A stretch of 39,831 bases of DNA, taken from the IMG/VR virus record IMGVR_UViG_2802429220_000013; one strand, 5' to 3'. The stretch's first letter is position 1, and the number at the start of each line of letters is the position of its first letter. Position numbers and translations under genes: made by a program. The DNA is from a virus (lineage: Duplodnaviria; Heunggongvirae; Uroviricota; Caudoviricetes). Positions 2,638 to 37,342 of the stretch are shown here, in pieces. The notes under the pieces were generated by a model. That model worked only from the letters and a program-made list of their open reading frames with translations. It had not been told where the DNA came from and did no database searches.

Positions 2638-3134
2638 TTCACCTCCTGCTGCGGTGCTGCTGGCATTTCACACCAGTGCGTAACTGAGTGCGGATCCGGA
2701 TATTCGGTGCCATCATCCCAGCGATTGCCATTCCACATTGCAGACCACATCTCACCGTCTTCATACATGACCATTACCGGAATTAACTTATCCGGCATTC
2801 GCTCACTACAGCTTATCCAACCATCCGGAGTTACCGGCACTGGCTTGGCGGTATAAAGCGGTGTTATATCTGCCAGAAAATTACATGCTTTATGCAGCCG
2901 CACCCACCGTTCGACTTCTGCTTTGTCAGAATACATACCAGTGAACGTGTTATATTCACGGTCAATTTGCGTGAAAGTTACCTTCCACGCCACCGGTTCT
3001 GCTTCCAGCGATGCCAGAGCAATCCGTGCCAGTTCTTCCGCTTCTTCTGCTGGCAGTACAACGTTGCTACCAGGTCCGTATGTTTCGCGCCACTGCCTGA
3101 TTGTCAGCAGTCGCTCTTTGGTAATAGTGGTCAT
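2634..3134 (-). CDS. DUF551-type phage protein
   Basis: Start chosen at internal ATG with AAGGAG RBS directly after the upstream stop; C-terminal …VTHWCEMP… motif typical of DUF551 proteins. Confidence 0.55.
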   Translation of the reverse strand: MTTITKERLLTIRQWRETYGPGSNVVLPAEEAEELARIALASLEAEPVAWKVTFTQIDREYNTFTGMYSDKAEVERWVRLHKACNFLADITPLYTAKPVPVTPDGWISCSERMPDKLIPVMVMYEDGEMWSAMWNGNRWDDGTEYPDPHSVTHWCEMPAAPQQEVK

Positions 3135-3135
3135 A

Positions 3136-3690
3136 TCACTCTCCTTTGATGCGAATGCCAGCGGCGCGGATAGATTTCCATTGTCCCCACATTCGGTTGA
3201 AGTCTGTGCCTGATAAGGTCGCGTTACGGTATCCAGTTTCAGTGCGCAATCCTTCAAGCGTCGATTTGGAGATACAAATTGAATGCATTACCCATGATTC
3301 AAACAAATCACGCTCCCGGGCTTCGCAACTTTGCTTACTCATCTCTTCGATACGTTCAGCCATCGCAGCACACTCTTCAAAGTTACTTAATGCTTTTCGC
3401 TCCCATTCGGAGCATTGTTTTCCAAGCTCGGCAATCAGTTTGTCTTTGCCTTCCAGCTCGTCCAGCAACGCCTGCACTACTTCTGGGTTGAAAGCTGCGA
3501 TATAACGAGCGTTGTTCTCTGCGTTTTTCTGTCCATCAAAGCCGGTCCATTTGATAACGTCTTCACATCGTTTATCACCGGGCGTATGCACCGCATACGT
3601 CCCAGTACCCGGCGAAATAAATGCGACCCATTCGCTTTGTGTTGCCTGTTTTGCTATCTCACGCAGTGCCTGATAGTCAATCTTGTTCAT
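3136..3690 (-). CDS. Ead/Ea22-like early protein
   Basis: 184 aa; N-terminus MNKIDYQALREIAKQATQ… resembles Ead/Ea22-like prophage proteins (recalled, not verified). Confidence 0.45.
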   Translation of the reverse strand: MNKIDYQALREIAKQATQSEWVAFISPGTGTYAVHTPGDKRCEDVIKWTGFDGQKNAENNARYIAAFNPEVVQALLDELEGKDKLIAELGKQCSEWERKALSNFEECAAMAERIEEMSKQSCEARERDLFESWVMHSICISKSTLEGLRTETGYRNATLSGTDFNRMWGQWKSIRAAGIRIKGE

Positions 3691-29530: not shown

Positions 29531-30937
29531 ATGTCTACTTGGCAAGGAACAAACGGCGGATTGTTGGCTGGTATCGGCGGCGTCAACTCAAACGCTCCGA
29601 GCGTAAACGACATCGGCAATACGCTTCAGCTTATCAGGCAGAACAATGATATTGAGCGTTCAGGCGCTAACAATGTTGGGCTGACTGCTTTGCAAGGCCT
29701 TTCAGGTATTGCGGGGGTGTTTCAGCAGGAAAAGCAGGCTCAGCGGCAGAAAGAATTTCAGCAGGCATACGCTAATGCTTATGCGTCTGGTGATCGCGGT
29801 GCTTTGCGTCAGTTGGCTACTCAATATCCAGACCAGATTGAATCCGTTCGTAAAGGCATGGGATTCATTGATGAAGAGCAGCGTAATTCTATCGGCACCT
29901 TAGCGGCTGGCGCACGCCTTGCGTCATCGTCTCCAGAAGCAATGCAATCATGGCTGCAAAACAACGCCAAGGAACTGACTCGCGTCGGTGTTGACCCTAA
30001 CAGCGTTGCTCAGATGTATCAGCAGAATCCTTCAGGATTTGGTGAGTTTGTTGATCACCTTGGGATGGCTGCTCTCGGTCCGATTGACTACTTCAATGTT
30101 CAGGACAAGATGGCTGGTCGTGAGATTGACCGAGGCAGGCTGGCAGAGACAATCCGCAGCAATCAGGCTGGAGAGGCGCTTCAGGCGAGAGGGCAAAATC
30201 TTTCCTATCAGTCAGCAATGACTGGTCACAATATCGCAGCGCAACGCTTGGCTCTGGATCAGCAAGAGTTCGGGTTTAAGATGCAGCAAGCGCAGGAAAA
30301 GGCTCAGCAGTTGATTAGCGAAGCACCTAAGCTGTCAGTAAACATGGAAAAAGGCATCGAGACGGCTGTAAACAATGCCACAGCATCATCAAACTCAGCC
30401 AATTCCATGAGTGCGCTTGCTCAACAGTTCAGAGCAGAAAAACCAACGACAGGTTTGTTCGGTAACGCACAGAACATGTTCGCAAAACTTACCGGAAGCG
30501 ATACGACATTGCGTGATTTGCGCATTCGCCAAAATGCCCTTGTTAACAGTCAGGTTCTTAAATTCCTACCTCCCGGCCCCGCAACGGATAAAGACGTTGA
30601 GATCGTTCGTCAGGGTGCACCAACTGACATGGATAACCCTGAGACGGTCGCAAGATGGCTTGATGCTATGGCAAACCTTGAGCGACGAAACGCGCAGTTT
30701 AATGAGTTTAAAGCCGAGTGGATGAGCGCGAATGGCAACCCTGGACAATCGCGTAATGGCGGTCAGATATTGGGGTTGGATGTTAAAAAAGGTGAATCAT
30801 TGGGGAGTGCCGTTAAGCGGTATATGTCGATGAATACTGACGCAGCGCCAGCACAAGATTCGACACCTTCAGGAGAACCACGGAATCAGGTTGGATCATA
30901 TACCTCAAAATCAGGCATTCAATTTACGGTGGAATGA
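29531..30937 (+). CDS. Ejection protein (P22 gp20-like)
   Basis: 468 aa; synteny and size. Confidence 0.7.
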
Positions 30938-32781
30938 TGAAAGTAACTGCAAACGGTAAGACATTTACCTTTCCTGATGGTACGAGCACCGAAGATATTG
31001 GCACCGCCATTGATGAGTATTTTGCTGGTCAGGCTGTTCAGCAACAAACAGTTAATCAGGCCAATAATGCACCAACACGGGAAGAACCATCATTGATGCA
31101 ACAAGCTGGCGATTGGCTCACTGGTGGTCAAAGTGCAGGGCAAATTGCAGAACAGGCTGGTCGTGGTCTGGTAAACATACCATTTGACGTATTGCAGGGT
31201 GGCGCAAGTCTGATTAATGCAATCAGTCAGGGGCTTGGTGGACCCAAGGTTTTGGATGATGTTTATCGTCCAGTAGACAGACCGACAGACCCCTACGCGC
31301 AAGCCGGTGAAACAATTGGTGGGTATTTAGTTCCAGGAGTTGGAACGGCAGGAAGCATGGCTATTGGCTCACTGGCAGAGGCCACAAATCAGAAAGGCGA
31401 TTTCGCACAAAATGCAGCTAAAAATGCCGGAGTTAACCTTGCCACTCAGGGTGTTCTTTCCGCAGCAGCAAAGGGAATAGGGCGTGGAATAACGGCTATA
31501 AAAGGTGATATTGCGCCAGAAGTGGCGAAGAAAATTGCCACATCAGAATCGATGGGCGTGACACCAATGACATCTGATGTTATCCCGCCGAAAAATGCTT
31601 TCACTCGCGGCCTAACTCAGGATGCCGAGGGGGCTTTGCTCGGGACAGGCTCAAAGCGAGCGGAGCAATATGCAACGCGTAGTAAGTTGGTAAGTAATTA
31701 TTTTGACCGTTTTGGTGAGTACAACCCGGATGATGTGGTGAAATCTCTGACCACCACGTTAAGGGGACGGAAGGATGCCGCTGGCGCTGTTATCAATGAC
31801 GTTACCAATAAAATGGGTAATGCCGCAGTTGATACCACAAATACCATGAATGCTCTGAATACAGCGATCGCAAGACAGGAACGGCTTGGGACGTCTGCCA
31901 ATCAAAGCCTGCTTACATCCTTGCGTAACCTACGTGAAGAATTAGCAAACCCTGCAACTGATTTGGATGTTACGTTTGATCTCTTGCGTCAGCACAGAAC
32001 AGCATTTAGATCTAATGTTCAGGGAGATGCTATGGTCTTCCCCAACCAGGCAAAAGCAGCTACCAATATGGTAGAGAATGCAATGTCAAAAGATCTTCGT
32101 AACGCAGTTGCAAAAAACCTCGGTGCATCAGACGCAGCAAAATACCTTAAAGCAAATTCCGATTATGCAAACGTTTATAATAAGGTGCTTAATAAAAACA
32201 TTGCTAACAAGCTCAACAAGGCAAGCAGTGAAGCCAGTCCTGAACTTATAAATACCGTTGTATTAAGCAGAAAACCATCTGACGTGAAACGAATCTGGAG
32301 CGCACTGGATGATAAAGGGAAAGATGCTATGCGTGCAGCTTACGTCAGCAAAATAGCGGAAAAGGCCGGTGACTCTCCAGCCAAGTTCATCACTGAAGTT
32401 AATAAGCTGAAATCTCAGTCAGGCGGTGAAATTTACAACACTATTTTTTCAGGAAAGCACATGAAAGAGCTTGATGCTCTTCATGAAGTTCTACAGCAAA
32501 CAGCAAGGTCAGACACCGCAAATGTAGTAACTCAGACGGGGCAATCGCAAGCCAACAGGATAAGGACGATTGGCGCAACTGCGACTCTTGGCGTATCAAT
32601 GGGGCTTGAGGCTGGTTTCGGTGCAATGATGCGCTTGTATGAGTCCAAAGCAGCAAGGAATGCTCTCTTACGTCTGGCAAACACCAAAGCAGGAACACCA
32701 GCCTATGAAAGAGCGCTAAATAATGCTGCAAATGCGATACGCCCTATACTTTCAAGCCAAATTACAGCAGAACAGCAATAA
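30934..32781 (+). CDS. Ejection protein (P22 gp16-like)
   Basis: 615 aa; synteny and size; last gene of the rightward late block before immI. Confidence 0.7.
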
Positions 32782-32795
32782 AAGATAAGATATAA

Positions 32796-33281
32796 CTACC
32801 TGATATTACTGCTACTGTTGCATGTTACCGTGTTTCCAAATCCTGAATTGCAGTTTGTATATGTGTCAACGCGTGTTGGGTAAGGTTGAGTTATAACAGG
32901 CTGGCGCGCTTTTTGCTCGATCGCTTGCATTGTGTTTACAGCCTGATAATTCAATAAAGCCTGCTGGAATGCTTGGCTTTGTGCTATTTGTTGTGCTTGT
33001 TCTTGGCTTTGTAATTGAACATAAAGATTCTGAAGTTCAAGTCTTGCCTGTGTGTCACTTATCTTGCCTTCATCGACACCTTGCCCGAGCATCTTCGCAG
33101 CAAGGACATACAGCTTAGGTGTTGGTGCTGATGCCATGCGAGAGTCGTTCTTCAAGCTGGCATCAAGGCAATTAGCCATATCGCTAAGCTTTGGATAGCG
33201 TTGCTCGCAACTTGCCTGATAGTCGCTTACTTTTGCGCACCCAGCCAGCAGAAGCGGGATAATTAACAGTGATTTTTTCAT
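32796..33281 (-). CDS. Predicted outer-membrane lipoprotein (moron in the sieA slot)
   Basis: Start at ATG with AAGGAG RBS; signal peptide MKKSLLIIPLLLAGC with lipobox, +2 Ala; Gln-rich coiled-coil C-terminal region; opposite strand to late operon. Confidence 0.6.
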   Translation of the reverse strand: MKKSLLIIPLLLAGCAKVSDYQASCEQRYPKLSDMANCLDASLKNDSRMASAPTPKLYVLAAKMLGQGVDEGKISDTQARLELQNLYVQLQSQEQAQQIAQSQAFQQALLNYQAVNTMQAIEQKARQPVITQPYPTRVDTYTNCNSGFGNTVTCNSSSNIR

Positions 33282-33315
33282 ATAATTAACTCTCCTTAGT
33301 TTTGCGCAGGATACC

Positions 33316-33681
33316 ATGAAAAAAGTTAACATTGGAAACGTACCAAAGATGCTCGTACCGCTCTTTGAGAGCGGTACAATTGTGTTTTGTAGAGACTTTC
33401 CAGAATGGCAACGCCTGCATCAAAAACTTGGCGTTGACGTGCATGACTCGGACGCCAACGGAGCGTCTCATACAATGAGTAGCGAGAATGGTGTTTTGCA
33501 TGTGATAGGCGTGTTCAATGGCAAACTATCTACTATTGCCCATGAGTGCGCTCACATGGCATTCGATATCTGCTCAAGGGTAGGTGTTGATGTTGAACCA
33601 GGAAGAGCCAACGAGACTTACTGCTACTTAATGAGCAGGCTTGTTGAGTTCTGCGAGCGACATATCAAAAAGCCGGAGTGA
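33316..33681 (+). CDS. Hypothetical 121-aa protein with an HExxH motif (HECAH)
   Basis: ATG with AGGA RBS, divergent from the lipoprotein gene with 34 bp between starts; single HExxH motif; no family recognised. Confidence 0.5.
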   Translation: MKKVNIGNVPKMLVPLFESGTIVFCRDFPEWQRLHQKLGVDVHDSDANGASHTMSSENGVLHVIGVFNGKLSTIAHECAHMAFDICSRVGVDVEPGRANETYCYLMSRLVEFCERHIKKPE

Positions 33682-33694
33682 CCCGGCTTGATTA

Positions 33695-33874
33695 TTACTT
33701 TTTGCTGTCTGGAGTTCGCTTATCCAATACCCAGCCATGACCTGGCTTTGTTGTTGGTGGAAGCCTTTCGTTGTCCTTGACGGTGGCAAAATTGTCTTTC
33801 TTACCGCCGCGTGGGCCAACTTCTTGGTATATTCCGCCGTTTTTCCCTGTGTTTTCACCTGGTTTTTTCGCCAT
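33695..33874 (-). CDS. Hypothetical small basic Gly/Lys-rich protein (59 aa)
   Basis: Internal ATG with GAGG RBS; MAKKPGENTGKNGGIYQEVGPRGGKKDNFATVKDNERLPPTTKPGHGWVLDKRTPDSKK. Confidence 0.4.
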   Translation of the reverse strand: MAKKPGENTGKNGGIYQEVGPRGGKKDNFATVKDNERLPPTTKPGHGWVLDKRTPDSKK

Positions 33875-33973
33875 GATATACCTCAACATACACCCGCTAT
33901 TGGGCGATTAAATATTGATCTCATTTTATAAGTAGTCAATATGGCCCAGGTAAATGCAAAAATTAACTCACCG

Positions 33974-34225
33974 TCAGGTGGTTTTTTTGTACAAATCCTT
34001 CAGCGTATCAAACACCATCTTCTTAACAAGATCTGACTGCTCATCAGCGAGTCGTTCTGCATCGTCACGATATCCAGTCACAGGCGATGGTTTTGATAGA
34101 GCATCTTGGACGATTTGTAACAACTCGGAGTTCATTGATCTCCCATTCGCCTCCGCCCTGAATTTTAATTTCTCCCTTACTTCCATAGGCATACGGAAGT
34201 TAAAGTGCGGATCATCTCTAGCCAT
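33974..34225 (-). CDS. mnt: Mnt repressor (P22 immI)
   Basis: 83 aa MARDDPHFNFRMPMEVREKLKFRAEANGRSMNSELLQIVQDALSKPSPVTGYR… near-identical to P22 Mnt as recalled. Confidence 0.9.
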   Translation of the reverse strand: MARDDPHFNFRMPMEVREKLKFRAEANGRSMNSELLQIVQDALSKPSPVTGYRDDAERLADEQSDLVKKMVFDTLKDLYKKTT

Positions 34226-34247
34226 GCCATCACTCCAAGTTAGTGTG

Positions 34248-34299
34248 TTGACATGATAGAAGCACTCTACTATATTCTCAATAGGTCCACGGTGGACCT
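34248..34299. promoter_or_regulatory. Pant promoter with arc operator (atgatagaagcactctactat) and mnt operator (aggtccacggtggacct)
   Basis: -35 TTGACA and -10 TATATT spaced 17 bp; 21-bp arc operator and perfectly symmetric 17-bp mnt operator match P22 immI sites as recalled. Confidence 0.8.
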
Positions 34300-34479: not shown

Positions 34480-34550
34480 TTGAAGCCCCAACTGCTGGAA
34501 CAGTCAGGGCTTCGGTTGTCAGTAAATCCGTGGAGAAAAACCAACATGAA
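34480..34550 (-). ncRNA. sar: Possible sar-like antisense RNA across the arc-ant junction
   Basis: By synteny with P22 immI only; intergenic hairpin gaagccc…gggcttc is present; promoter and ends not verified. Confidence 0.25.
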
Positions 34551-35481
34551 TAGTATAGCAATTTTAGAAGCAGTGAACACCTCTTACGTACCATTCAACG
34601 GTCAGCAAATTATCACCGCCATGGCTGCCGGAGTTGCATATGTTGCGATGAAGCCAATCGTTGAAAACCTTGGAATGAGCTGGTCAACGCAGCAAACAAA
34701 ACTCATGAAGCAGATTAGCAAATTCAACTGTGTTCATATGAACATGGTTGCCGCTGATGGGAAGCTTCGTAAGCTACTCTGCCTTCCTTTGAAGAAGTTA
34801 AATGGATGGCTGTTCAGCATCAACCCTGAGAAAGTTCGTGCTGACATCCGTGATAAACTGATTCAGTACCAGGAGGAATGCTTTAGCGTGCTGCATGACT
34901 ACTGGACTAAAGGCCATGTAGTTAACCCACGCAAAGCTAAAAAGGCGTTGCCGGGTAAAATCACCACTGAACAGCAGGAAGCCATTAAACAACTCGTCAT
35001 GAGTCGCGGTCAGTCTCTGCCAAAAGAAAAACAGGCTAAGGCGATGATCACCATGTGGTCGTCACTGAAATCCCATTTTGGATGTTCGTACAAAGAAATC
35101 AGTGAGGAGCAGTTTACAGAAGCACTGTCACTTGCAGCTCGAGTTCCACTTGAAGGCGAGTTTATCGGCAAACAAGAGAAGAAAGCAAACGAGCTTTCTG
35201 CAAAAGAAGCAAACAGCCTTGTATGGTTATGGGATTATGCTAACCGTTCACAGGCATTATTCCGCGAACTGTATCCGGCGCTAAAACAAATTCAATCGAA
35301 CTATTCCGGCAGATGCTACGACTACGGTCATGAATTCTCGTATGTTATCGGAATGGCGAGAGACGTTTTAATAAACCACACACGAGATATTGATATTAAT
35401 GAGCCAGACGGACCAACGAATCTTTCCGCATGGATGAGACTTAAGAATAAAGAATTACCTCCTTCAGTACATAACTACTGA
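34546..35481 (+). CDS. ant: Antirepressor Ant (P22 immI)
   Basis: Start at internal ATG with GGAG RBS ([21 protein letters not shown]…); follows arc as in P22. Confidence 0.85.
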
Positions 35482-35581: not shown

Positions 35582-37342
35582 ATGACAGACATTACAGCCA
35601 ATGTTGTAATTGGGATGCCTTCGCAACTCTTCACTATGGCTCGTTCTTTTAAAGCCGTAGCCAATGGCAAAATTTATATCGGTAAAATTGACACTGACCC
35701 GGTAAATCCAGAAAACCAGATTCAGGTTTATGTAGAGAATGAAGACGGCTCTCACGTTCCTGTATCGCAACCAATCATCATTAACGCTGCTGGTTACCCG
35801 GTATATAACGGACAGATTGCCAAGTTCGTAACTGTGCAAGGCCATTCTATGGCTGTTTATGATGCGTATGGTGCACAGCAGTTCTATTTTCCCAGCGTTC
35901 TAAAATATGACCCAGACCAGTTCAAATATCAGCTATCAGGTGCTGGGGGCGCATCGATGATTGGAACGGAAAGACAGGGTAATCTGCAAGAAGTTGCGAA
36001 TGCAATAAATACAAGTAAAAACATAGGTGAATTTAATTCAAATATAAATAATTTACTTGCTCATGTTACCGATTCAATTATTTCAGACGATTCATTTATT
36101 ATACCATCATTTGCCACTTTAAGTGGCGCTCCTGGATTTCTTACAGGGTTCATTGGAACTACGTATTCAAAGAATAAAACAATACGTAAATCCAGCAACA
36201 CATCTGCAACCCTTACCAACCAGGACCCTAATGCAGGAAGCCAAACTGTTGATGCCGTTGTTTATCAAGATCCTGCATGGCCTAATGGATCTGTTTTTCC
36301 GCAGAAAACAACTATAAAAAATATTACACTGGAGGGTAATTCAGCCTCAAGCAAGAACGATGCGGGAATATTTGTTCTTCAAGGTGGTGTTTTAGATATC
36401 GAGAACGTTGATGTAATCAATTGCCGAAATGCGTTTTGGGGAAAGGATATCTGGCAAAGCAGTATAGCGAGAGTGTTTTCTAATGATGGAAAAATCAGGA
36501 TTGATGGCGGCACGTCTGTAACTCTGAGAGGTTGCGGATTAGCGTCAAGTGACACCACCAGGCCTGGGGCATTTGATTTAAATAATCTAAAGTATTCCTC
36601 ACTGATAAACTGCACATCAGATAACACAACAAATACGGCATTCTCATTCAATGGTTGTCATGGGATTGTAGTAGATGCATGTGGTTGTGAGGGTGCAGGA
36701 ACAACAACCGCAGATACTGCTACAGCACTAAACTTTATCGATAACAACCATGGCATCATTGTTAATAGTTTTGTTTGCGTACCAGTTGTAGGCCAAGGGC
36801 CAGCAATTATAGCGTTTGGTTCTAATAACGATGTGATCATTAACAATCCAGAACTTGCATTTGGCATTACCTATAATGTTGATATTTATATTCACGGACC
36901 GGGTAATAGAATAACTATAAATGGTGGAAGATTTGGAGCAAATGGAGATGCTCTTCCGATTATTGTTGCGTCAGACAGTGCTGTAGGATCAATAGTCATA
37001 TACAATTCAAATAATGGCATTAGACATTTATACTCAGTGAAAGCAGCAGGAATTGTGACTCAAATACAGGAATTCAGGCCTATAGTTTCAGCTGTAATTG
37101 ATGGGACAACCGGAAACGTAACAAAGGGATATGGAGTTGACTCAGTTCAAAAAACAGGCGATGGGGCCTATACAGTACATTTCACAAGTCAAGTGGCAAC
37201 TGGATATTCAATCCAGCAATTAAGTTCGGTTGGATTTGTTCAGGTTGCATCATTTACTGATAACGCAATAGCATTTACGCTGCTGAATCCTAGCCTGACA
37301 GCTACTGATTCGTCATTCTCAATAAATATAAATGGCTGGTAG
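35582..37342 (+). CDS. Tailspike protein with P22-type N-terminal head-binding domain and divergent receptor-binding domain
   Basis: N-terminal ~115 aa ([59 protein letters not shown]…) parallels P22 gp9; remainder is Asn/Gly/Ser/Thr-rich, consistent with a beta-helix. Confidence 0.8.

What the first reader, a model, noticed from the sequence alone, without database searches (positions are those of the whole stretch)
33316..33681. Small HExxH-motif protein divergently paired with the lipoprotein gene
The 121-aa ORF starts 34 bp from the lipoprotein start on the opposite strand, so they share a compact divergent control region. It contains a single HECAH sequence (HExxH zinc-metallopeptidase signature) in a protein far smaller than typical ImmA/IrrE or other metallopeptidases. 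It could be a minimal protease, an anti-repressor-type factor or a degenerate domain.
Basis: partly seen in the sequence, partly recalled or inferred. Interest (0 to 1): 0.55.

Follow-up and report, generated by a model that had tools for sequence, protein, structure and literature searches.

The report
Small phage zinc-protease-like gene hkcC
The 121-aa ORF is a real, conserved phage gene (hkcC of P22/HK620, function unknown) that encodes a minimal zinc-metalloprotease-like protein; its conserved companion is the small convergent gene downstream of it, not the lipoprotein gene.

Summary
ORF 33316-33681 (+) encodes 121 aa, contains one HECAH, and starts 34 bp from the lipoprotein start. The window is a P22-like E. 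coli prophage, and the ORF is the orthologue (99%) of hkcC of HK620/P22, listed in the literature as "unknown function" and absent from the P22 reference annotation. It is under strong purifying selection. It belongs to a large, uncurated family (546 clusters, median 123 aa). Across 121 members the only invariant residues are H76, E77, H80 and E100, a complete gluzincin site. A confident AlphaFold model (pLDDT 89) shows the zincin core, with HExxH on one helix and E100 starting the next. So the "minimal protease" reading is supported. The ImmA/IrrE anti-repressor reading and the lipoprotein pairing are not. The lipoprotein is one of at least four alternative genes in the P22 sieA slot, driven by PsieA inside hkcC's first codons. 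The conserved partner is the convergent 59-aa YjzC-like gene (P22 orf59a). The two share a bidirectional terminator and travel together among unrelated phage types. Substrate and biological role remain unknown. This is a new, uncurated member family of a known superfamily; moderate interest.

The parts
33316..33681 (+). hkcC orthologue: 121-aa stand-alone zincin-like (gluzincin-type) protein
   Evidence: ORF. 99.2% identical to the HK620 hkcC and P22 ORFs. PHROG 1365 at E 1.7e-39, unknown function. Family of 546 clusters. Purifying selection. AF2 model with pLDDT 89.
33541..33555 (+). H76-E77-C-A-H80 codons: two zinc-ligand His and the catalytic Glu, within predicted helix 71-88
   Evidence: Sequence. 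H76, E77 and H80 invariant in 121 sequences. Helix assignment.
33610..33630 (+). N99-E100-T-Y-C-Y104-L: 'glutamate helix' motif; E100 is the predicted third zinc ligand
   Evidence: E100 invariant, Y104 in 117/121, N99 in 88/121; H80-to-E100 spacing 18-23 with mode 20. Helix 100-116. An ungapped phmmer alignment places residues 76/77/80/100 on thermolysin 142/143/146/166 (weak, E 0.09-0.7).
33670..33689 (.). Hairpin overlapping the hkcC stop codon: terminator of the leftward mnt-orf59a transcript, annotated as bidirectional in HK620
   Evidence: Terminator scan on both strands. P22 'mnt terminator'. HK620 'bidirectional terminator tORF59A'.
33695..33874 (-). Convergent 59-aa partner gene (P22 orf59a / HK620 HkcD), a YjzC-family all-beta mini-protein; the start at MAKKPGEN is preceded by GAGG
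   Evidence: 98% identical to P22 orf59a. PHROG 3202. Weak PF14168 YjzC hit plus homologues named YjzC. AF2 pLDDT 87 with three strands. Adjacent and convergent to HkcC homologues in many lineages.
33316..33346 (-). Equivalent of the annotated P22 PsieA promoter (P22 13861-13891), embedded in the first codons of hkcC and driving the leftward cargo gene
   Evidence: Coordinate transfer from the 97.8% identical P22 stretch. The SieA paper used the 85 bp upstream of sieA as PsieA (PMC10883804). By homology only; not tested.
32796..33281 (-). Neighbouring lipoprotein gene (161 aa, lipobox LAGC): interchangeable cargo in the sieA slot, not a conserved partner of hkcC
   Evidence: PHROG 6067, unknown function. 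No Pfam, NCBIfam or PADLOC hit. Slot occupancy. Homology to P22 begins at 33288, just upstream of its start codon.
33355..33377 (+). Perfect 10-bp inverted repeat (GTACCGCTCT-TTG-AGAGCGGTAC) inside the coding region; specific to the P22 lineage; role unknown
   Evidence: Homologues encoding the same VPLFESG peptide do not keep it.

Best explanation
The ORF is the hkcC gene of a P22-like E. coli prophage. It encodes a stand-alone, roughly 120-residue zincin-fold protein with a complete gluzincin active site. H76 and H80 on one helix and E100 at the start of the next helix would hold a zinc ion, and E77 would act as the general base. It has no signal peptide or membrane segment (by inspection), so it should act in the cytoplasm as a zinc endopeptidase on one or a few specific proteins. 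It has no recognisable promoter of its own and lies in the sense orientation of the late operon, so it is most likely made during lytic growth by read-through of the late transcript (inferred). It is not a functional unit with the lipoprotein gene. That gene is one of several interchangeable cargo genes in the P22 sieA slot, and its promoter happens to lie in hkcC's first codons. The gene that travels with hkcC is the convergent 59-aa YjzC-like gene, which shares its terminator and in P22 belongs to the lysogenically expressed mnt operon. I infer that this small beta-protein is the protease's regulator (inhibitor) or its substrate, and that the convergent layout makes their expression mutually exclusive. 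Shown: gene reality, family, invariant site, predicted fold, linkage pattern. Inferred: zinc binding, catalysis, timing, and coupling with the YjzC-like protein. Unknown: the substrate.
Confidence: 0.6

Rival explanations
1. An active protease that works independently of the YjzC-like neighbour: a host-takeover or anti-defence effector that cleaves a host (or rival-phage) protein during lytic growth. On this reading the convergent small gene is just co-inherited cargo.
For: Family members occur without YjzC in lytic phages at early or middle gene positions. In N4-like phCDa the gene heads a block of small genes; in Kurepalu-1 it lies between the ligase and RNA polymerase genes. Members also occupy the lysis-to-terminase moron slot. 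Zincin MPTase domains are a common theme in phage conflict proteins (PMC5512222).
Against: This does not explain why the two-gene cassette is kept intact through at least three different insertion contexts. No target is known, and there is no PADLOC or anti-defence annotation.
Confidence: 0.22
2. A SprT-like protease acting on DNA-bound or DNA-crosslinked proteins.
For: 2 of 121 family members hit Pfam SprT-like at E 1e-4. Two BFVD structural neighbours are named SprT-like.
Against: The window protein has no SprT-like hit. No His beyond the HExxH motif is conserved; the third invariant ligand is Glu. There is no zinc-ribbon or DNA-binding extension in the 121 aa.
Confidence: 0.07
3. A non-catalytic zincin fold: a zinc-binding scaffold, pseudo-protease or binding factor.
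For: No activity has ever been shown. The protein is very small, with a minimal substrate-binding region.
Against: The catalytic base E77 is invariant along with the three ligands in 121 diverged sequences. A purely structural zinc site would not need E77.
Confidence: 0.07
4. An ImmA/IrrE-type anti-repressor protease that cleaves Mnt, Arc or the C2-type repressor of the immunity region.
For: It is located next to mnt/arc/ant. BFVD lists 'IrrE' proteins only at E>0.03.
Against: No Peptidase_M78 hit. HK620 keeps hkcC although its mnt and ant have decayed. Homologues in other phages sit among tail, lysis or replication genes without a repressor neighbour.
Confidence: 0.03
5. One reading: a protease plus lipoprotein pair under one divergent control region, for example a protease/inhibitor pair like the Listeria metzincin and TIMP-like lipoprotein.
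For: The 34-bp divergent arrangement. A phage-derived metzincin/lipoprotein-inhibitor pair exists in Listeria (abstract of PMC8235301, listed).
Against: The lipoprotein is present in only 18/80 P22-like loci and 19/298 matching E. coli genomes, and in no diverged locus. HkcC has no signal peptide whereas the lipoprotein is exported, so they would be in different compartments. There is no metzincin HExxHxxGxxH motif.
Confidence: 0.01

Closest known systems
hkcC of phage HK620 and the unannotated equivalent ORF of phage P22 (ant moron / immI region)
   Same: 99% identical protein. Same position between gene 16 and the tailspike gene. Same downstream orf59a/HkcD gene and shared terminator.
   Different: The left neighbour differs: a lipoprotein here, sieA in P22, hkcB in HK620. 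The literature lists hkcC only as 'unknown function' (PMC2629481).
Gluzincin metallopeptidases (MEROPS clan MA(E), e.g. thermolysin M4); zincin-like MPTase domains of phage and plasmid polyvalent proteins (PMC5512222)
   Same: HExxH on one helix and a Glu ligand on the next. The His-to-Glu spacing of 20 equals that of thermolysin (H146 to E166; residue numbers from established knowledge). [quoted passage not shown]
   Different: A stand-alone protein of about 120 aa with no further subdomain. No statistically significant sequence or fold match to any characterised member. Not part of a multidomain polyvalent protein.
Minimal stand-alone zincins (PDB 3e11 'predicted zincin-like metalloprotease', 114 aa) and SprT-like small phage proteins
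   Different: Only weak similarity. The third ligand is Glu, not a further His as I recall for SprT/Spartan-type sites.
ImmA/IrrE (Peptidase_M78) anti-repressor proteases
   Same: Small phage- or element-borne HExxH proteases near immunity genes.
   Different: No family hit, smaller size, and no conserved repressor partner.

Membership tests
hkcC orthologous group (P22-like phages) | Near-identical sequence and conserved position between gene 16 and the tailspike gene, followed by orf59a | tested here: met
   99.2% identity to the HK620 and P22 ORFs; synteny shown.
Zincin-like metallopeptidase superfamily, gluzincin type | HExxH motif located in an alpha-helix | tested here: met
   H76-E-C-A-H80 lies in predicted helix 71-88; invariant in 121 sequences.
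Zincin-like metallopeptidase superfamily, gluzincin type | Third zinc ligand is a Glu on the following helix, about 18-25 or more residues after the motif | tested here: met
   E100 is invariant; spacing is 18-23 with mode 20; it lies at the start of helix 100-116. The 3-D distance to the two His was not measured (no access to coordinates).
Zincin-like metallopeptidase superfamily, gluzincin type | [quoted passage not shown] | tested here: met
   Predicted strands 21-25, 49-56 and 59-66, plus a short strand 11-13, and helix 28-37 (pLDDT 89); definition read.
Zincin-like metallopeptidase superfamily, gluzincin type | Statistically significant sequence or structure match to a characterised member | tested here: inconclusive
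Zincin-like metallopeptidase superfamily, gluzincin type | Zinc binding and peptide-bond hydrolysis | not testable with these tools
   Needs biochemistry.
ImmA/IrrE (Pfam Peptidase_M78, COG2856) | Match to the family model | tested here: not met
   No Pfam hit for the protein at E<=0.1, and no M78 hit among the 121 members.
ImmA/IrrE (Pfam Peptidase_M78, COG2856) | Conserved adjacency to its cognate repressor gene | tested here: not met
   Contexts vary (tail, lysis and replication genes), and HK620 has lost mnt and ant but kept hkcC.
SprT-like (PF10263) | Match to the family model | tested here: not met
   The window protein has no hit; only 2/121 relatives hit, at E 1e-4.
Metzincin plus lipoprotein-inhibitor pair | Extended HExxHxxGxxH motif, a secreted protease, and conserved pairing with the lipoprotein | tested here: not met
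   The sequence is HECAHMAFDIC, with no signal peptide by inspection. The lipoprotein is present in only 18/80 and 19/298 related loci.
YjzC family (PF14168), for the partner gene 33695-33874 | Match to the family model | tested here: inconclusive
   19.1 bits against a cut-off of 25. However, homologues at 41-64% identity carry PF14168, and UniRef names closer ones 'YjzC family protein'.

The most novel reading that the evidence does not exclude
HkcC and the YjzC-like protein form a previously unrecognised two-gene phage module that moves between unrelated phage types. In it, a minimal zinc protease made in the lytic phase and a small beta-protein made in lysogeny antagonise each other (as protease and inhibitor, or as protease and substrate). 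The convergent layout and shared terminator would enforce mutually exclusive expression, for example to switch off a prophage-encoded function when the phage goes lytic.
Probability: 0.2. Interest if true: 0.65.

Novelty: new member of a known kind. Interest (0 to 1): 0.4.

Why it matters
P22 is one of the most studied phages, yet this gene is missing from its reference annotation and is labelled 'hypothetical' in all the E. coli genomes and nearly all the phage records seen here. Recognising it as an intact minimal gluzincin gives a concrete, testable biochemical function to a family of several hundred sequence clusters found in temperate and lytic phages of many hosts. It also points to a specific candidate partner, P22 orf59a (YjzC family), whose function is likewise unknown. 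If the protease targets host or prophage proteins, it would add to the small set of phage proteases involved in host takeover or counter-defence. It also corrects a tempting but wrong gene pairing: the lipoprotein is better viewed as a candidate superinfection-exclusion cargo in the sieA slot.

Tried and rejected
1. I first recalled that this might be the P22 ORFan pid. The paper places pid between orf25 and orf80 at nt 40357-40998, so it is not.
2. Pfam, NCBIfam and PADLOC gave nothing usable for HkcC or the lipoprotein, and only a sub-threshold YjzC hit for the partner; the lone NCBIfam hit (a lantibiotic model, E 0.026) is chance.
3. The close-homologue profile (A2) gave no hit against the PDB. 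Foldseek against the PDB gave only noise. The afdb50 library was unavailable.
6. The BTP1/Salmonella prophage transcriptome paper does not cover this locus, and the SieA paper does not mention hkcC or orf59a. No expression data were found.
7. Literature searches for characterised small phage zincins found only general treatments.
8. The lipoprotein-pair, ImmA/IrrE and 'chance ORF' readings were considered and rejected on the linkage, family-scan and selection data.

Full report
**What is there.** The ORF at 33316-33681 (+) is 121 aa long with an ATG start. It contains a single H-E-C-A-H at codons 76-80, nt 33541-33555. The oppositely oriented lipoprotein gene most likely starts at 33281 (MKKSLLIIPLLLAGC, preceded by AAGGAG). 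PHROG 6067 aligns from that Met.

**Where it is.** The surrounding genes identify the immI / 'ant moron' region of a P22-like phage. These are a gp16-type DNA-transfer protein, Mnt, Arc, Ant and a tailspike with the P22 head-binding domain. Window 33288-34299 is 97.8% identical to P22 nt 13834-14844. The 1.1-kb segment 32790-33900 is 100% identical to a prophage in E. coli strain 41.

**What the gene is called.**
- The ORF is 99.2% identical to hkcC of phage HK620 and to the equivalent ORF of P22.
- In the P22 reference record the ORF is not annotated. The stretch shows only 'sieA promoter' at its 5' end and 'mnt terminator' at its 3' end. Other records call it hypothetical or 'similar to hkcC'.
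- The epsilon34 genome paper lists hkcC and 59a as the two genes of unknown function in the P22 ant moron (PMC2629481).
- My first idea, that it might be the ORFan pid, was wrong. pid lies elsewhere in P22.

**Is it a real gene?** Yes.
- Among 37 distinct near-identical alleles in 80 viral contigs there are 29 synonymous and 3 non-synonymous variant codons.
- Where dS is not saturated, dN/dS is 0.07-0.09 in the three closer pairs and 0.26-0.28 in two pairs near saturation.
- A profile search of 1.8 billion representative proteins found 546 clusters at E<=1e-3. Almost all are stand-alone proteins, with a median length of 123 aa in the 121 sampled.

**What the protein is.**
- *Invariant residues.* In an alignment of 121 members at 23-74% identity to the window protein, the only invariant columns are H76, E77, H80 and E100. 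G49 and Y104 are nearly invariant.
- *Spacing.* The distance from the second His to the Glu is 18-23 residues, with a mode of 20.
- *Thermolysin alignment.* A weak phmmer alignment covers query residues 66-113 and thermolysin residues 132-179. Both stretches are 48 residues long, so it is ungapped. It puts residues 76/77/80/100 on thermolysin 142/143/146/166. Those are thermolysin's zinc ligands and catalytic Glu (established knowledge).
- *Predicted fold.* AlphaFold2 gives a confident model (pLDDT 89, pTM 0.83). It has strands 11-13, 21-25, 49-56 and 59-66, and helix 28-37. Helix 71-88 carries HExxH, and helix 100-116 begins at E100. This matches the published description of the zincin-like metallopeptidase core. 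[quoted passage not shown] The first C-terminal helix carries HExxH and the second carries the Glu ligand (PMC5512222).
- *Similarity searches.* They agree in kind but are weak in strength.
  - PDB sequence hits have E 0.04-0.7, and all are to zincins or HExxH-bearing domains. They include myroilysin, BMP1/tolloid, a Lys-endopeptidase and the HExxH-bearing C1 domain of the N4 virion RNA polymerase.
  - Foldseek against the PDB found nothing.
  - In the viral structure library there are 26 matches at E<=1e-3 with TM-score up to 0.83. All are small, mostly uncharacterised proteins of very diverse phages. The few that are named are 'SprT-like', 'Metalloprotease' or 'IrrE'.
  - Pfam and PADLOC do not cover the protein; NCBIfam gave only a sub-threshold chance hit, and its PHROG family (1365) is of unknown function. 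Two of 121 relatives touch Pfam SprT-like at E 1e-4.
- *Conclusion.* This is an uncurated family of minimal gluzincin-type zincins. Because the catalytic base E77 is invariant along with the three ligands, an active enzyme is more likely than a structural zinc site.

**The lipoprotein is not its partner.**
- Homology with P22 starts at 33288, just upstream of the lipoprotein start codon. So the lipoprotein gene occupies exactly the slot of P22 sieA and inherits its 5' region.
- The annotated PsieA (P22 13861-13891) maps to about 33316-33346, inside the first codons of hkcC. The SieA study used the 85 bp upstream of sieA as the promoter (PMC10883804).
- In 80 P22-like viral contigs with a near-identical hkcC, the slot holds this lipoprotein in 18, sieA in 13, hkcB in 8 and none of these in 41.
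- Morganella prophages have a SIEA-family gene, Rap1a or others in that slot.
- Only 19 of the 298 complete E. coli genomes that match any part of the query (lipoprotein + hkcC + orf59a-like gene) carry all of it.
- No diverged homologue has the lipoprotein next to it.
- HkcC has no signal peptide (by inspection), whereas the lipoprotein is exported, so they would not share a compartment.

**The conserved neighbour is the small convergent gene.**
- The gene at 33695-33874 (-) encodes 59 aa. It corresponds to P22 orf59a and HK620 'HkcD'. Its stop codon lies 13 bp from the hkcC stop codon, and the two genes share a terminator hairpin at 33670-33689.
- It belongs to the YjzC family and is predicted as a compact three-stranded mini-domain with pLDDT 87.
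- It is adjacent and convergent to the HkcC homologue in 70/80 loci retrieved with hkcC and in 80/80 viral loci retrieved with the partner itself.
- More tellingly, the pair also occurs in diverged lineages that place it in different genomic slots:

| Lineage | Slot |
|---|---|
| P22-like, Morganella and Proteus prophages | Between gene 16 and the tailspike gene |
| Xenorhabdus, Klebsiella oxytoca and metagenomic siphovirus-like prophages | Between the tail chaperone and tape-measure genes |
| A Pasteurellaceae prophage | After replication genes |

- HK620 keeps the pair although its mnt and ant genes have decayed.
- The link is not universal.
  - The 40%-identity paralogues lack the partner. 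These are epsilon34 gp70, ST64T orf-129 and loci L006-L013, placed between the lysis cassette and the terminase or Dec genes.
  - Members in lytic phages also lack it.
  - YjzC-family genes occur without HkcC in 15 sampled loci.

**How it probably works.**
- *Timing (inferred).* No promoter-like site precedes hkcC. Only 28 bp upstream of the start codon are shared between phages with different left-slot genes. The gene is in the sense orientation of the late operon, and P_late polymerases are known to transcribe through this moron into the tailspike gene (PMC2629481). In other phages the homologue follows same-strand late genes within a few bp. I therefore infer expression during lytic growth.
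- *The partner in P22.* orf59a lies downstream of mnt in the leftward, lysogenically expressed unit that ends at the shared terminator.
- *Best-supported model.* HkcC is a cytoplasmic zinc endopeptidase of the lytic phase with a narrow, still unknown substrate range.
- *Speculative step.* The YjzC-like protein may be its inhibitor or substrate, with the convergent layout keeping their expression mutually exclusive.
- *Main alternative.* HkcC may be a stand-alone host-takeover or anti-defence protease, with the neighbour being merely co-inherited cargo.

**Novelty and score.** The gene itself has been known as an ORF of unknown function since the HK620 and P22 annotations. I found no publication or curated family that assigns it to the zincins. 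Small zincin domains are common in phage conflict proteins, so a specialist would find this useful rather than startling. I rate it a new (uncurated) member family of a known kind, with interest 0.4. The cassette hypothesis is the part that could raise its importance.

Noticed in passing
window 32796-33281 (-) and 33282-33346: The 161-aa lipoprotein gene (lipobox LAGC; PHROG 6067, unknown function; no Pfam, NCBIfam or PADLOC hit) sits exactly in the slot of the P22 superinfection-exclusion gene sieA. It inherits sieA's upstream region and annotated promoter. At least four alternative genes occupy this slot in related prophages (this lipoprotein, sieA, hkcB, and SIEA-family or Rap1a-like genes), which makes the lipoprotein a candidate prophage-expressed exclusion or defence factor.
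   Followed up: partly
window 33355-33377 (+): A perfect 10-bp inverted repeat with a 3-nt loop, followed by a T-rich run, lies inside the hkcC coding region, just beyond the PsieA-equivalent. It is present only in the P22/HK620-type sequence. Homologues encoding the same VPLFESG peptide do not keep it, so it looks like a superimposed DNA- or RNA-level signal (attenuator or operator?).
   Followed up: partly
loci L193-L196 (metagenomic contigs), gene at 3001-3198: A distant YjzC-family member (59% identical to the partner protein) sits in a four-gene same-strand operon: AAA ATPase, Peptidase_S8, YjzC, pP_pnuc_1. This looks like a conflict or defence system, and it is a second case of a YjzC-like protein encoded next to a protease.
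   Followed up: no
L015 2501-2890 (epsilon34 gene 70); also ST64T orf-129, phage L and loci L006-L013: Many P22-like and lambdoid phages carry a 38-42% identical paralogue of HkcC between the lysis cassette and the terminase or Dec gene, without the YjzC-like partner. Some phages (ST160, SE1, ST-35) have both copies. This window has only the immI copy.
   Followed up: partly
P22 reference records BK000583 / NC_002371, nt 13861-14226: The hkcC ORF is not annotated in the P22 reference genome, although it is intact there and 99% identical. The stretch is labelled only with the sieA promoter and the mnt terminator.
   Followed up: yes
L198 2965-3327 (Pseudomonas phage phCDa gp24); L199 2851-3165 (phage Kurepalu-1 gp34): Family members in strictly lytic phages lie at early- or middle-gene positions. 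In N4-like phCDa the gene heads a block of small, unannotated same-strand genes that diverges from the terminase cluster. In Kurepalu-1 it lies between the DNA ligase and RNA polymerase genes. This suggests a role in host takeover rather than in lysogeny. Coliphage N4 itself carries a zincin-type HExxH domain in its virion RNA polymerase (PMC13434306, PMC5512222); whether phCDa's does was not checked.
   Followed up: no
window 30934-32781, 34480-35481 and 35582-37342: The prophage is mosaic relative to P22. The gp16-like protein is 74% identical, Ant 70%, and the tailspike shares only the N-terminal head-binding domain (72%) before switching to an unrelated receptor-binding part. The hkcC-orf59a-mnt-arc segment between them is about 98% identical to P22.
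   Followed up: no
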